From assembly GCF_044324785.1 (NCBI RefSeq), contig NZ_CP172127.1: DNA of 64,000 nt. One strand, written 5' to 3'. Source of the DNA: Escherichia coli (GTDB taxonomy: Bacteria; Pseudomonadota; Gammaproteobacteria; Enterobacterales; Enterobacteriaceae). A program made the position numbers. Position 1 is the stretch's first letter, and every line of letters begins with the position of its first letter. Shown here piece by piece: positions 6,001-9,000 of the stretch.

Positions 6001-9000
6001 TGGTACCCTTCTCAACCGCTACTGGGACGATCGCGATACGCCACGACCAGAGTCATGGGTGGAAGATATTGCCACCGCCAAAAGCAATCCGAATCGACCT
6101 GCCACTGAAATTTACCGCGACCTGCGCTCTGCCGCTGCGTCTGGCTGGGATTTCAGCTCGCGCTGGATGGACAACCCGCAGCAGTTAAATACCTTACGCA
6201 CCACCAGCATCGTACCGGTCGATCTGAACAGCCTGATGTTTAAAATGGAAAAAATCCTCGCCCGCGCCAGCAAAGCTGCCGGAGATAACGCAATGGCAAA
6301 CCAGTACGAAACGCTGGCGAATGCCCGTCAAAAAGGGATCGAAAAATACCTGTGGAACGATCAACAAGGCTGGTATGCCGATTACGACCTGAAAAGTCAT
6401 AAAGTGCGCAATCAGTTAACCGCGGCCGCCCTGTTCCCGCTGTACGTCAATGCGGCAGCGAAAGATCGCGCCAGCAAAATGGCGACGGCGACGAAAACAC
6501 ATCTACTGCAACCAGGCGGCCTGAACACCACGTCGGTGAAAAGTGGGCAACAATGGGATGCGCCAAATGGCTGGGCACCGTTGCAGTGGGTCGCGACAGA
6601 AGGGTTACAAAACTACGGGCAAAAAGAGGTGGCGATGGACATTAGCTGGCACTTCCTGACCAATGTTCAGCACACCTATGACCGGGAGAAAAAGCTGGTG
6701 GAAAAATATGATGTCAGCACCACCGGAACAGGGGGCGGCGGTGGCGAATATCCATTACAGGATGGCTTTGGCTGGACCAATGGCGTGACGCTGAAAATGC
6801 TGGATTTGATCTGCCCGAAAGAGCAACCGTGTGACAATGTTCCGGCGACGCGTCCACTCAGTGAATCAACAACACAGCCGGTAACACAAAATGAGGCGGA
6901 ACCTACGCCTTAACTTTACTGTATATCGAGCAATGCCATTACGTGCATAAAATTGGCATTGCTCTTTCTTCACCACGAAATACCAAATACTACTCTTTCT
7001 ACGGTCTATGCCTTTATTTTCTTTTATTAGAGAAGATTTTAATTTTATTTTATCAACTTGTTAATCATTACACCTCTATTTATATTTTCCCCCACTCCCC
7101 ATTCTCCCTGACAATTTTCTTGTGGAACAAAGTGTTATTTAAGAAACAAGCAAATCATTCTGTCTCTTTAGACAAATTTTGACATCAAACATGATCTTTT
7201 TCGCTATATGTGTAAGTATATAGCGGTTTTAATTATCAGGATATTACTTATGTCACTAACCAGACGGAGGTTTACACAGATTCTTGCGTCGACATTGTTC
7301 CTGCATCATCTGCCGTCCTTTGCACAATCAGTCAAATTCTGGGCCTCACTGACGCTTCCCGAAGCCCAAAACATTACACGCATCGTCAGCGCAGGCGCGC
7401 CCGCCGATTTACTATTGCTGGCTGTCGCGCCAGAAAAAATGGTCGGTTTTTCCTCTTTTGATTTTGCCCGTCAGGCATTAATTCCATTGCCAGAGCACAT
7501 TCGCCAGTTCCCCAGACTGGGACGACTCGCCGGGCGCGCCAGCACACTCTCGCTGGAAGGGCTTATGGCGTTACATCCCGATTTGGTCGTTGATTGCGGC
7601 AATACGGATGAAACCTGGCTCTCCCAGGCACGGCAGGTTAGCGAACAGACACAAATACCCTGGTTATTGCTTAACGGGAAACTGGAACAATCAGCAGAAC
7701 AGTTAACAACGCTTGGCAAAACGTTAGGCGAAGAGTATCGCGCCGCAGAACAAGCCAATCTCGCCAGCCGCTTCGTTGGTGAAGCTCAGGCATTCGCCAC
7801 CTCACCCGCCGCTAACCTCCGCTTTTATGCTGCGCGCGGTCCTCGAGGGCTGGAAACGGGCTTACAAGGTTCGTTGCATACCGAGGCGGCGGAATTATTA
7901 GGTTTGCATAACGTCGCGCAAATAGCCGATCGCCACGGTCTGACACAGGTTTCCATGGAAAATCTCCTGCGCTGGCAGCCGGATATTATTCTGGTTCAGG
8001 AGGCCGTTACTGCAGATTTTATTCGTCGTGATCCTCTCTGGCAGGGCGTGAAAGCGGTTGCGGAACAACGCATCTTATTTTTAAGTGGCCTGCCCTTTGG
8101 CTGGCTGGATGCCCCGCCGGGAATCAACCGTCTTCTGGGATTACGCAGACTTCACGCCTGGCTGGATCCCGCCATCAATCGCCAGTTTAAAAGTGACATG
8201 CAGCATTACGCCCAACTGTTCTGGCATTGCCCATTAAGTGACGCCGACTATCAAAAATTGGTGGCGAGCTAATGAGAACCGTAAACGGATGTATTTTGCT
8301 GCTGGCAGCTATCAGTATCACTTTTGCCGCCGTAAGTGGGGCTTATCATCTCGATATACAGCAACTGCTGGCGCTCATTCTTCGTCAAGAAAATGTTCCT
8401 GTGCAGGAACAAATTGTCTTCTGGCAAATCCGCGTGCCGCGTATTCTTGCTGCGCTGTTTCTGGGCGCGGCGCTGGCAGGGGCCGGAACCACCTATCAGG
8501 GAATGTTCCGTAATCCCTTAGTGTCACCGGATATTTTAGGCGTCTCCGCCGGTGCCGGACTTGGTGCCTGCGCGGCAATCCTGTGGGGATTATCCATTGT
8601 TTACATCCAGCTGTACGCATTTTGCGGCGGGCTGATGGTGGTCGCGGGCGTCTGGTTGATTACGCGTCGGGTGACCCGCCACGATCCGATCTTAACCCTG
8701 GTGCTGGTAGGCATTGCGTTAGGAACGTTGTGCGGAGCGGGGATATCGCTAATAAAAACGCTGGCCGATCCTTACACCCAGTTACCGTCAATTACCTTCT
8801 GGTTGCTGGGGGGGCTGTCCACCGTGACCTTACGCGATCTCTGCTATGCTGCACCGATCATTCTCACAGGCTCCTTGCCCCTGTTTTTTCTCCGCTGGCG
8901 CATGAATTTACTCACGCTTTCCGACGACGAAGCCCGTTCGCTGGGACTGAACGTGACGCGTCTGCGCTTTGGATTAATTGTCTGCGCCACACTAATCACC

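What the first reader, a model, noticed from the sequence alone, without database searches (positions are those of the whole stretch)
7063..7159. Only weak Fur-like half sites in the leader of an apparently iron-type uptake operon
Two AATCATT motifs (7063..7070 in ttgttaatcattacacc, and 7153..7159 in caaatcattctg) resemble the right half of the Fur box GATAATGATAATCATTATC, but I find no full 19-bp match. For an operon with a TonB-dependent receptor and a class-III binding protein, the lack of a clear Fur box is itself notable and may mean regulation by a different metal or signal.
Basis: inference. Interest (0 to 1): 0.3.

Follow-up and report, generated by a model that had tools for sequence, protein, structure and literature searches.

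The report
ModE operator, not a Fur box
This "iron-type" E. coli uptake operon has no iron (Fur) switch; instead a near-perfect, widely conserved binding site for the molybdenum sensor ModE sits on its promoter, so the cluster (prrA-modD-yc73-fepC, long assumed to import iron) is most likely switched on by molybdenum shortage.

Summary
AATCATT occurs at 7063-7069 and 7153-7159, and there is no Fur box. A Fur matrix built from 13 K-12 Fur promoters scores the two sites 2.7 and 1.2 bits, against 6.5-20 for controls. The motif is at chance frequency in the window, and neither copy is conserved outside close E. coli.

CGCTATATGTGTAAGTATATAGCG (7202-7225) ends 24 nt before the start codon. It matches the E. 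coli ModE operator consensus CGnTATATA-N6-TATATAnCG at 15 of 16 positions, as well as the modA, moaA, dmsA and napF operators. No random leader reached this score.

A box of 13-16/16 sits at the same place in 45 of 47 orthologous gammaproteobacterial loci. Where the TonB-dependent receptor gene has its own promoter, a box sits there too, including in Betaproteobacteria.

The permease, ATPase and ModD are closest to the Haemophilus influenzae MolBC molybdate/tungstate importer cluster.

The operon is OI#55/ECs1693-1699, the prrA-modD-yc73-fepC cluster, present in 40% of complete E. coli genomes and absent from K-12.

Best reading: repression by ModE-molybdate, possibly with FNR activation. The cargo is unproven.

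The parts
7063..7069 (+). Judged a chance motif.
   Evidence: The Fur matrix gives 2.7 bits for 7054-7072. It lies in DNA that is not conserved between genera.
7153..7159 (+). Judged a chance motif.
   Evidence: The Fur matrix gives 1.2 bits for 7144-7162. It is conserved only in close E. coli and is lost in strain 06-00048 and in E. albertii.
7179..7192 (.). TTGACATCAAACAT, a conserved upstream promoter element. It is either an FNR-type site (TTGAT-N4-ATCAA, 7/10 here) or a sigma-70 -35 hexamer (TTGACA, 7179-7184).
   Evidence: TTGA (7179-7182) and CA (7190-7191) are invariant in 13 Enterobacteriaceae leaders whose flanks are not conserved. In the window and 27 orthologous loci a 7-9/10 FNR-like match lies exactly 23 bp before the ModE box. 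Yokenella and C. koseri carry TTGATACTGAACAA, against TTGATACCGAACAA upstream of K-12 dmsA. In the window alone the match is not significant.
7202..7225 (.). ModE operator (Mo-box): CGCTATATG-TGTAAG-TATATAGCG, an inverted repeat.
   Evidence: It matches CGnTATATA-N6-TATATAnCG at 15/16 (consensus as quoted in PMC545781). K-12 modA scores 14, moaA 15, dmsA 15 and napF 14 on the same scale. It is the only hit in the 64-kb window. None of 1000 random leaders reach 15/16, and none in 3 Mb of leader-like random sequence. It is conserved in 45 of 47 orthologous loci.
7211..7219 (+). Inferred extended -10 element TGtAAGTAT inside the operator. The implied transcription start is about 7226.
   Evidence: This is inference. 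T7211, G7212 and A7215 lie in the operator's N6 spacer and are invariant in 13 Enterobacteriaceae, as are A7218 and T7219. K-12 ModE operators have unrelated spacers. The start site has not been mapped.
7238..7243 (+). Shine-Dalgarno-like CAGGAT, 6 nt before the ATG.
   Evidence: It is a conserved block in alignments A2 and A3.
7250..8272 (+). Class III periplasmic binding protein, annotated as 'iron ABC transporter substrate-binding protein'. It has a twin-arginine-type signal, MSLTRRRF.
   Evidence: Pfam Peripla_BP_2. RefSeq places the start at 7250. M1, R5 and R6 are invariant in 18 orthologues. It is 26% identical to H. influenzae MolA over 233 aa. In the fold search, uncharacterised 4pag is first and MolA (3psa) is the best characterised hit.
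8272..9252 (+). FecCD-family type II ABC permease, MolB-like.
   Evidence: The best solved relative is 2nq2_A, H. influenzae HI1471 (MolB), at 6e-65 and 223 bits. FhuB scores 174 bits and BtuC 146. Identity to MolB is 42%.
9249..10007 (+). ABC ATPase, MolC-like.
   Evidence: The best single-domain solved relative is 2nq2_C, HI1470.
10017..10829 (+). Class I SAM-dependent methyltransferase (yc73 region). Role unknown.
   Evidence: Pfam Methyltransf_25/31. Only weak NCBIfam hits. It is conserved within the operon across genera.
10826..11680 (+). ModD, a quinolinate-phosphoribosyltransferase-like protein found in molybdenum transport loci.
   Evidence: NCBIfam TIGR01334 modD, 2.3e-150. It is 46% identical over its full length to the ModD encoded next to H. 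influenzae molA.
11685..13676 (+). TonB-dependent outer-membrane receptor (PrrA / ECs1693 / Z1961).
   Evidence: Pfam Plug plus TonB_dep_Rec_b-barrel. No close characterised relative was found. Names are from PMC1890555. Its orthologues have their own ModE box where a promoter gap exists.
6915..13652 (.). The accessory island (O157 S-loop#83 / OI#55) between treA and ymgE. It is absent from K-12, which carries ycgY there.
   Evidence: blastn against K-12. It is present in 2145 of 5426 complete E. coli genomes.

Best explanation
The regulatory element of this operon is a ModE operator at 7202-7225, not a Fur box. When the cell has enough molybdate, the ModE-molybdate dimer binds the inverted repeat. 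The repeat overlaps the core promoter: the inferred -10 element and the transcription start, 24 nt before the start codon. Binding shuts off the six-gene operon, which encodes a binding protein, a permease, an ATPase, a methyltransferase, ModD and a TonB-dependent receptor. When molybdenum is scarce, ModE leaves and the operon is expressed.

The operon encodes a MolBC-type (type II ABC) importer with a dedicated outer-membrane receptor. It is therefore most likely a molybdenum (or tungsten) acquisition system expressed under molybdenum starvation. In Enterobacteriaceae it is probably also activated anaerobically through an FNR-like site centred about 41 bp upstream of the start.

Shown here: the site, its statistical significance, its conservation, the absence of a Fur box, and the homologies. 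Inferred: ModE binding, the direction of control (repression), the start site, the FNR input and the cargo.
For: 1. Sequence. CGCTATATGTGTAAGTATATAGCG matches the E. coli ModE consensus at 15/16 (consensus quoted in PMC545781). It equals or beats the four K-12 ModE operators read from the genome.

2. Specificity of the score. In 119 kb of K-12 DNA, only those four operators score 13 or more. The window holds one 15, one 13 and nothing else above 12.

3. Chance. None of 1000 composition-matched leaders reach 15/16, and none in 3 Mb of leader-like sequence.

4. Position. The box ends 24 nt before the ATG. The modA operator, the repressed paradigm, ends 19 nt before modA.

5. Phylogenetic footprint.
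- 45 of 47 gammaproteobacterial loci carrying the operon have a box of 13-16/16. In most it lies 9-34 nt before the binding-protein gene, and it is usually the only such site in 17 kb. These loci span Escherichia, Citrobacter, Yokenella, Symbiopectobacterium, Serratia, Enterobacter, Klebsiella, Raoultella, Pluralibacter, Affinibrenneria, Erwinia, Providencia, Proteus and Shewanella.
- The surrounding DNA is unconserved.

6. Independent sites.
- Where the receptor gene has its own upstream gap, a second box (14-16/16) sits in front of it.
- In GC-rich Betaproteobacteria with the receptor gene first, the best box of the locus lies just upstream of the receptor gene: 15/16 in two loci and 13/16 in two.

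7. Molybdenum context. ModD is encoded in the operon. The permease and ATPase are closest to H. influenzae MolB and MolC. That importer takes up molybdate and is repressed by molybdate through an 'unknown factor' (PMC4031551). The H. influenzae cluster itself shows ModE-like boxes in both of its promoter gaps.

8. No rival signal.
- Fur, Zur and NikR consensus tests are at chance.
- No Fur box appears in any of 47 orthologous leaders: median 3.7 bits, maximum 11.1.
- No Rfam family, including the Moco riboswitch, matches the leader.
Against: - There is no experimental evidence here for binding or expression, and the transcription start is not mapped.
- ModE activates at some promoters (moaA, dmsA, napF; my knowledge), so repression rests only on position.
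- The window's box deviates from consensus at position 9 (G for A). Its FNR-like site is only 7/10, which is not significant on its own.
- The binding protein is only 26% identical to MolA, and its best fold match is uncharacterised, so molybdate as the cargo is unproven.
- A TonB-dependent receptor is unexpected for a free oxyanion. The methyltransferase has no explained role.
- Iron control by routes other than a Fur box, such as small RNAs or indirect effects, is not excluded.
- I could not read Studholme & Pau 2003 or RegPrecise, which may already list this site.
Confidence: 0.82

Rival explanations
1. The operon is an iron-uptake system, as the literature assumes. Fur controls it through weak or non-canonical sites: the AATCATT half sites, or the 8.8-bit site at 7219-7237.
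For: - Family annotation reads 'iron ABC transporter' and FecCD, with a TonB-dependent receptor.
- The cluster was 'proposed to be involved in iron uptake' (PMC1890555; PMC12928451).
- The best Fur-like site (13/19, 8.8 bits) overlaps the promoter region.
- Some genuine Fur promoters, such as fhuE, fhuA and exbB, score only 6.5-8.5 bits in leave-one-out testing.
Against: - The half sites score 2.7 and 1.2 bits.
- The best site is reached by 11.6% (matrix) to 22% (consensus) of random leaders.
- The half sites are unconserved. The best site recurs only in the two closest Escherichia leaders (9.1 and 9.3 bits). None of the 47 orthologous leaders reaches the control median of 14 bits.
- The 8.8-bit site owes much of its score to the AT-rich right half of the ModE box.
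- The half sites lie upstream of the conserved promoter block.
Confidence: 0.05
2. The palindrome at 7201-7226 works as an RNA hairpin. It would be an intrinsic terminator or attenuator, or a stabilising 5' stem-loop, rather than a protein-binding DNA site.
For: - The consensus scan flagged it as terminator-like, with an 11-pair stem followed by GGTTTTAATTAT.
- As RNA it folds at -10 kcal/mol, with a z-score of -3.8.
Against: - Any perfect palindrome folds this well.
- The stem is A/U-rich and is followed by only four U residues.
- It sits 24 nt before the operon's own start codon, downstream of the conserved promoter elements.
- Conservation is of base identity that matches the ModE consensus, not of pairing. 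The two free positions (3 and 22) are complementary in only 56% of 34 distinct boxes.
- The same box occurs in front of receptor genes in other gene orders.
Confidence: 0.04
3. ModE binds the site but acts as an activator, or as a co-activator with FNR as at dmsA, napF and moaA. The operon would then be expressed when molybdate is available, for example to import tungstate or molybdate at high external concentrations like H. influenzae MolBC-A.
For: - ModE is a dual regulator (K-12 annotation).
- MolBC-A is a low-affinity system useful at high molybdate (PMC4031551).
- An FNR-like element adjoins the box, as in FNR- and ModE-co-regulated promoters.
Against: - The box overlaps the inferred -10 element and start in Enterobacteriaceae. 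In Providencia it lies just downstream of a TTGACT-17-TAATTT promoter. These are positions typical of repression, as at modA.
- H. influenzae molB is itself repressed by molybdate (PMC4031551).
- A TonB-dependent receptor implies scavenging under scarcity.
Confidence: 0.08

Closest known systems
E. coli modABC operator and ModE-molybdate repression
   Same: The same 24-bp inverted repeat, CGnTATATA-N6-TATATAnCG: 15/16 here against 14/16 at modA. The placement is also the same, just upstream of the first gene of a transport operon: 24 nt here against 19 nt at modA.
   Different: - The target is an accessory-genome operon absent from K-12.
- It encodes a type II (FecCD/BtuC-like) importer, a TonB-dependent receptor, ModD and a methyltransferase, rather than the type I ModABC.
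- Binding has not been demonstrated.
Haemophilus influenzae MolBC-A (HI1470-HI1472) molybdate/tungstate importer with adjacent modD (HI1473)
   Same: - The permease is 42% identical and is the best solved relative. The ATPase is the best single-domain solved relative. ModD is 46% identical.
- Both are class III binding protein plus type II importer systems linked to ModD (PMC3928620).
- molB is repressed by molybdate (PMC4031551).
- ModE-like boxes sit in both promoter gaps of the H. influenzae cluster.
   Different: - The binding protein is only 26% identical to MolA.
- The E. coli operon adds a TonB-dependent receptor and a SAM methyltransferase, and lacks the flanking type I mod-like genes.
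- MolA's ligand residues could not be compared.
Fur-repressed TonB-dependent siderophore or haem uptake operons (fhu, fec, fep, chu)
   Same: The parts list is the same: TonB-dependent receptor, class III binding protein, FecCD permease and ATPase. This is why the cluster is annotated and cited as iron uptake.
   Different: - There is no Fur box here or in any of 47 orthologous leaders.
- The receptor has only weak similarity to any named receptor family.
- ModD and a methyltransferase are encoded in the operon, and a ModE operator is present.
FNR plus ModE co-regulated promoters of E. coli molybdoenzyme genes (dmsA, napF, moaA)
   Same: An FNR-type half-palindrome lies next to a ModE box. The orthologue sequence TTGATACTGAACAA nearly equals TTGATACCGAACAA, which lies upstream of dmsA and which I recall as its FNR site.
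   Different: - There ModE stimulates expression from sites away from the core promoter (my knowledge). Here the box overlaps the core promoter.
- The FNR-like match in the window is weak (7/10), and the start site is unmapped.
Azotobacter vinelandii TonB-dependent receptor / ABC operons induced only without Mo and V (VnfA1-dependent; PMC9542535)
   Same: These are TonB-dependent receptor and ABC-transporter operons whose expression responds to molybdenum scarcity. They set a precedent for TonB-dependent acquisition under molybdenum limitation.
   Different: - The regulator differs: an enhancer-binding protein and sigma-54, not direct ModE occlusion.
- Homology of the receptors was not tested.
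- The proposed cargo there is a siderophore-type metallophore.

Membership tests
ModE operator (E. coli-type Mo-box) | A 24-bp inverted repeat matching CGnTATATA-N6-TATATAnCG. | tested here: met
   15/16 at 7202-7225. The K-12 operators score 14-15. None of 1000 random leaders reach this.
ModE operator (E. coli-type Mo-box) | Located at the promoter of genes for molybdenum transport or use. | tested here: met
   The box ends 24 nt before the first gene of an operon encoding ModD and MolB/MolC-like proteins.
ModE operator (E. coli-type Mo-box) | Conserved in orthologous promoters while the flanks diverge. | tested here: met
   45 of 47 gammaproteobacterial loci have a box of 13 or more. Alignments A2 and A3 show this. 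Extra boxes lie before receptor genes.
ModE operator (E. coli-type Mo-box) | Overlaps the -10 element or transcription start, as needed for repression. | tested here: inconclusive
   The start is not mapped. Conserved TG, A-11 and T-7 inside the box imply a start near 7226. In Providencia the box follows a TTGACT-17-TAATTT promoter.
ModE operator (E. coli-type Mo-box) | Bound by ModE only with molybdate, and expression changes with molybdate and modE. | not testable with these tools
   Needs gel shift or footprinting, and reporter fusions.
Fur box | A 19-bp site resembling GATAATGATAATCATTATC that scores like known sites. | tested here: not met
   The best match is 13/19, or 8.8 bits, which is at chance. 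The half sites score 2.7 and 1.2 bits. Controls score 6.5-20.
Fur box | Conserved in orthologous promoters. | tested here: not met
   Across 47 leaders the median is 3.7 bits and the maximum 11.1, with none at 14 or above.
MolBC-A-type molybdate/tungstate importer | A type II permease and ATPase orthologous to MolB and MolC. | tested here: met
   2nq2_A is the top solved hit (223 bits, 42% identity). 2nq2_C is the top single-domain ATPase hit.
MolBC-A-type molybdate/tungstate importer | A cognate class III binding protein of the MolA type. | tested here: inconclusive
   26% identity over 233 aa. MolA is the best characterised fold match, but with a TM-score of only 0.67-0.69 and iron-type proteins close behind.
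MolBC-A-type molybdate/tungstate importer | Genetic linkage to modD. | tested here: met
   ModD is encoded in the operon and is 46% identical to the H. influenzae neighbour of molA.
MolBC-A-type molybdate/tungstate importer | Binds and transports molybdate or tungstate. | not testable with these tools
   Needs ligand binding and uptake assays.
FNR class II promoter | A TTGAT-N4-ATCAA site centred near -41.5. | tested here: inconclusive
   7/10 in the window, which is not significant alone. Orthologues score 8-9/10 at a fixed 23-bp offset, with T1, T2, G3, A4, C12 and A13 invariant. The centre at -40.5 or -41.5 depends on an inferred start.
Moco or other riboswitch in the leader | A match to an Rfam covariance model. 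| tested here: not met
   Nothing better than E=7.6 in 6500-7700, and those hits are unrelated eukaryotic families.
Intrinsic terminator / attenuator | A G+C-rich stem followed by a U tract, with pairing kept by covariation. | tested here: not met
   The stem is A/U-rich and followed by four U residues. The free positions are complementary in only 56% of boxes.

The most novel reading that the evidence does not exclude
The prrA-modD-yc73-fepC / OI#55 cluster is a ModE-controlled, TonB-dependent pathway for acquiring molybdenum (or tungsten). It is carried by about 40% of E. coli, including ST131 and O157:H7, and by many other Proteobacteria.

On this reading the outer-membrane receptor imports a molybdenum species that porins cannot supply under scarcity. 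Candidates are a chelate ('molybdophore'), a host- or microbiota-derived molybdenum complex, or a pterin cofactor. A MolBC-like importer then carries the cargo across the inner membrane, and ModD and the methyltransferase process it.

This would be the first TonB-dependent molybdenum uptake route defined in enteric bacteria. It would overturn the cluster's standing label as an iron system.
Probability: 0.35. Interest if true: 0.75.

Novelty: new member of a known kind. Interest (0 to 1): 0.55.

Why it matters
The cluster is used as an 'iron uptake' marker of uropathogenic, avian-pathogenic and O157 lineage I E. coli (PMC1890555, PMC12928451, PMC8046923). The evidence here says its control signal is molybdenum, not iron.

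From my own knowledge, molybdoenzyme-dependent anaerobic respiration drives Enterobacteriaceae blooms in the inflamed gut and is the target of tungstate treatment. An accessory molybdenum/tungsten uptake route expressed under molybdenum starvation, and possibly anaerobically, would bear directly on that biology.

Because K-12 lacks the island, K-12-based ModE regulon work could not have seen this target. The same analysis offers ModE as the 'unknown factor' that represses the H. influenzae molABC operon. It also shows a TonB-dependent receptor family under ModE boxes in both Gamma- and Betaproteobacteria.

The limit is that everything past the sequence evidence is inference until binding and expression are tested.

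Tried and rejected
- **Fur.** Counting consensus mismatches does not discriminate: real Fur promoters score 11-17/19 and the leader 13/19. I therefore built a matrix from 13 K-12 promoters. The leader and 47 orthologous leaders are all negative.
- **Zur and NikR.** The consensus sequences came from memory. Both tests are at chance.
- **Riboswitch or other RNA family.** Rfam at E up to 10 finds nothing relevant.
- **Terminator or attenuator reading of the palindrome.** Rejected on composition, position and the lack of covariation.
- **The 79-aa ORF at 6943-7182 in the intergenic region.** It lies in DNA that is not conserved between genera and is treated as spurious.
- **The earlier ATG at 7208.** It lies inside the ModE box. 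Conservation starts at the annotated ATG at 7250.
- **Literature.**
  - A 'modD' mutant in PMC7549933 turned out to be a misprint for mdoD.
  - Studholme & Pau 2003 and Tirado-Lee 2011 are not held.
  - No paper in the library links this cluster to ModE.
- **Rhizobium homologues.** The ORFs I picked downstream of the binding-protein gene gave no Pfam hits, so I dropped this line.
- **Fold search of the binding protein.** It did not settle the ligand.
- **The 13/16 ModE-like match at 48053-48076.** It lies near ycgX/ymgL and is judged a chance match.
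Full report
**Setting.** The window is E. coli chromosome: dhaR-dhaKLM-treA, then an accessory island, then ymgE-ycgR-emtA-ldcA.
- treA ends at 6913.
- The island spans 6915-13652. In K-12 it is replaced by about 620 bp carrying ycgY.
- The island holds one six-gene operon on the + strand:
  - class III periplasmic binding protein, 7250-8272
  - FecCD-type permease, 8272-9252
  - ABC ATPase, 9249-10007
  - class I SAM methyltransferase, 10017-10829
  - ModD, 10826-11680
  - TonB-dependent receptor, 11685-13676
- In the literature this is O157 Sakai ECs1693-1699 / EDL933 Z1961 onward (S-loop#83, OI#55).
- The leader plus gene start is found in 2145 of 5426 complete E. coli genomes, including O25b:H4 and O157:H7.

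**Checking the observation.**
- No 19-mer within three mismatches of the Fur consensus occurs anywhere in the window.
- Counting matches to the consensus does not separate real Fur promoters (11-17 of 19) from this leader (13 of 19).
- I therefore fetched 13 Fur-regulated K-12 promoter regions and derived a symmetric matrix by iteration from the consensus.
- Leave-one-out scores of the controls are 6.5-20.0 bits, with a median of 14.
- The two motif-bearing windows score 2.7 and 1.2 bits.
- The best site in 6914-7249 scores 8.8 bits (7219-7237), which 11.6% of composition-matched random leaders reach.
- The heptamer is at chance in the window: 17 found against 16.1 expected.
- Two copies in 336 bp exceed a local expectation of 0.2 (p about 0.009). 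This is a post-hoc 7-mer in an AT-rich stretch where several repeated 7-mers are expected.
- Neither copy is conserved.

**What is really there.** The promoter scan flagged a 'terminator-like' palindrome at 7201-7226. Read as DNA it is CGCTATATG-TGTAAG-TATATAGCG (7202-7225).
- The E. coli ModE consensus is ATCGnTATATA-N6-TATATAnCGAT, as quoted in PMC545781 from Studholme & Pau 2003.
- The site matches 15 of the 16 specified core positions.
- I read the K-12 ModE operators from the genome:
  - modA, CGTTATATTGTCGCCTACATAACG, scores 14.
  - moaA, CGCTATATACATGATTACATAGCG, scores 15.
  - dmsA, CGATGTATACAAGCCTATATAGCG, scores 15.
  - napF scores 14.
- In the 119 kb of K-12 DNA I held, these four are the only sites scoring 13 or more, so the score is specific.
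- In the window the site is unique.
- None of 1000 random leaders reach 15/16, and none in 3 Mb of leader-like random sequence.
- Rfam finds no riboswitch or other RNA family in the leader.

**Conservation.** I aligned 18 orthologues of the binding protein and scanned one genome per species. This gave 70 loci.
- The six-gene operon is conserved in Escherichia, Citrobacter, Symbiopectobacterium, Serratia, Enterobacter, Klebsiella, Raoultella, Affinibrenneria, Providencia and Proteus.
- Shewanella and a few others lack ModD.
- In 45 of 47 gammaproteobacterial loci, a box of 13-16/16 lies within 400 bp upstream of the binding-protein gene. In most it is 9-34 nt before the gene, and it is usually the only such site in 17 kb.
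- In an alignment of 13 Enterobacteriaceae leaders, the only conserved blocks are TTGA...CA, the ModE box and the ribosome-binding site.
- Within Escherichia the box varies only at free or degenerate positions. O157:H7 has a 16/16 box.
- Two further, independent sets of sites exist.
  - In Providencia, Proteus and Shewanella fodinae the receptor gene is separated from the upstream genes, and a second box (14-16/16) lies right in front of it.
  - In GC-rich Betaproteobacteria the order is receptor, binding protein, permease, ATPase. There the best box of the whole locus lies just upstream of the receptor gene: 15/16 in Lampropedia and a Burkholderiaceae genome, 13/16 in two others.
- None of the 47 orthologous leaders has a convincing Fur box: median 3.7 bits, maximum 11.1.

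**Promoter anatomy (inferred).**
- The box ends 24 nt before the ATG. At modA, the repressed paradigm, it ends 19 nt before.
- Inside the box's N6 spacer, T7211, G7212 and A7215 are invariant across Enterobacteriaceae, and so are A7218 and T7219. The spacers of the K-12 operators are unrelated.
- These are the key positions of an extended -10 element, TGnAAnTAT (7211-7219). That would place the start near 7226 and put the operator over positions -24 to -1.
- Exactly 23 bp before the box, the window and 27 orthologous loci carry TTGAY-N4-nnCAa. This matches the FNR consensus TTGAT-N4-ATCAA at 7-9 of 10, with T1, T2, G3, A4, C12 and A13 invariant.
- Yokenella and C. koseri have TTGATACTGAACAA. 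K-12 has TTGATACCGAACAA upstream of dmsA, which I recall as its FNR site.
- The centre of this element (7185.5) would be at about -40.5 or -41.5, the class II position.
- The window's own copy, TTGACATCAAACAT, is only 7/10 and is not significant alone.
- The alternative is that TTGACA is a plain -35 hexamer. That leaves a poor -10 (CGCTAT at 17 bp).
- In Providencia the box follows a TTGACT-17-TAATTT promoter and would cover the start.
- Under every model the box overlaps the core promoter, which points to repression by ModE-molybdate.

**What the operon resembles.**
- The permease's best solved relative is H. influenzae HI1471 (MolB): 223 bits and 42% identity, against 174 bits for FhuB and 146 for BtuC.
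- The ATPase's best single-domain relative is HI1470 (MolC).
- ModD is 46% identical to the ModD encoded beside molA.
- MolBC-A is a type II importer whose binding protein binds molybdate and tungstate. molB is repressed by molybdate through an 'unknown factor' (PMC4031551). The cluster is called a secondary molybdenum transporter (PMC3928620).
- In the H. influenzae locus, the two best ModE-like boxes (14/16 and 13/16) are in its two promoter gaps. Another Pasteurellaceae locus has a 14/16 box 22 nt before its molA.
- The E. coli binding protein is divergent.
  - It is 26% identical to MolA over 233 aa.
  - A confident model (pLDDT 87) matches an uncharacterised Sulfurospirillum protein best. 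MolA is the best characterised hit, with iron-type proteins close behind.
  - It carries an invariant twin-arginine signal.
- The receptor has no close characterised relative.
- The cargo is therefore inferred, not shown.

**Rivals.**
- Fur control through weak sites is unlikely, for the reasons above (confidence 0.05).
- An RNA hairpin role is unlikely (0.04).
  - The stem is A/U-rich and is followed by four U residues.
  - It sits downstream of the conserved promoter.
  - The free positions 3 and 22 are complementary in only 56% of 34 distinct boxes, so base identity is conserved rather than pairing.
- ModE as an activator is possible but is disfavoured by position and by the H. influenzae precedent (0.08).

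**Verdict.**
- The finding as written is correct but minor.
- The site is a new member of a known kind.
- The system it controls is a TonB-dependent receptor plus MolBC-like importer, ModD and a methyltransferase under ModE boxes in two proteobacterial classes. It may be a new variant of molybdenum acquisition.
- I could not check Studholme & Pau 2003 or RegPrecise, so prior listing of the site cannot be excluded.
- Nothing in the 8 million papers searched links this cluster to ModE.

Noticed in passing
window 6915-13652: The island replaces about 620 bp that carry ycgY in K-12. The left junction is right after the treA stop codon. The right junction is 24 nt before the receptor gene's stop, so the receptor's last 8 codons lie in DNA shared with K-12.
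   Followed up: partly
L087 4879-4902 and 7905-7928; L088 7922-7945: In the H. influenzae mol cluster, the two best ModE-like boxes of the 11-kb locus (14/16 and 13/16) sit in its two promoter gaps. Another Pasteurellaceae locus has a 14/16 box 22 nt before its molA. ModE may be the 'unknown factor' that represses molB in Rice et al. 2014.
   Followed up: partly
L038 12548, L042 6077, L043 11740, L044 12574, L047 12548, L049 12704, L050 12571, L052 12572, L081 12569, L082 4881: In Providencia, Proteus and Shewanella fodinae, a second ModE box (14-16/16) lies directly upstream of the TonB-dependent receptor gene. There the receptor gene is separated from the preceding gene by an intergenic gap.
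   Followed up: yes
L074 4888, L079 5038, L075 5152/5228, L076 5171: Betaproteobacterial relatives have the gene order receptor, binding protein, permease, ATPase, and lack ModD and the methyltransferase. In these GC-rich loci the best ModE box lies just upstream of the receptor gene.
   Followed up: partly
window 7250-7330 (binding-protein N-terminus): MSLTRRRFTQ looks like a twin-arginine (Tat) export signal. M1, R5 and R6 are invariant in 18 orthologues. Tat export of a binding protein may hint at folding or cargo loading in the cytoplasm.
   Followed up: no
L057-L072, about 57 bp upstream of the binding-protein homologue: Rhizobium homologues of the binding protein (35-37% identity) keep an identical or near-identical CGCGATGTTCCATCCGATATAGCG (12/16 to the ModE consensus). 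The neighbouring genes were not resolved.
   Followed up: partly
L014 (JAIJJM010000486.1): This contig is filed under a Collinsella sp. metagenome-assembled genome but is E. coli DNA: the binding protein is 98% and the permease 100% identical. It is probably bin contamination.
   Followed up: no
L001 10473-11452 versus window 8272-9252: In strain N3 the 301-bp query (7120-7420: promoter region plus gene start) is 100% identical to the window. RefSeq nevertheless marks the permease there as a frameshifted pseudogene, while the window's ORF is intact.
   Followed up: no
window 48053-48076: This is the only other ModE-like match in the window, CTTTCTATACGTTATTTTATAACG (13/16). It lies near ycgX/ymgL and is probably chance. 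The window here is 99% or more identical only to strain N3 and 90-95% to most E. coli.
   Followed up: partly
L033 / L034 (Affinibrenneria salicis): The two loci are reverse-complement mirror-image coordinate ranges of the same 1,075,128-bp contig, so this is probably one locus reported twice rather than two copies. The ModE box lies 252 bp upstream of the binding-protein gene rather than 20-35 bp. An AATAATCATTAATATT stretch (7.8 Fur bits) lies just upstream of it.
   Followed up: no
window 6931-6963: The inverted repeat GCAATGCCA...TGGCATTGC is followed by TCTTTCTTC, just after treA.
   Followed up: no
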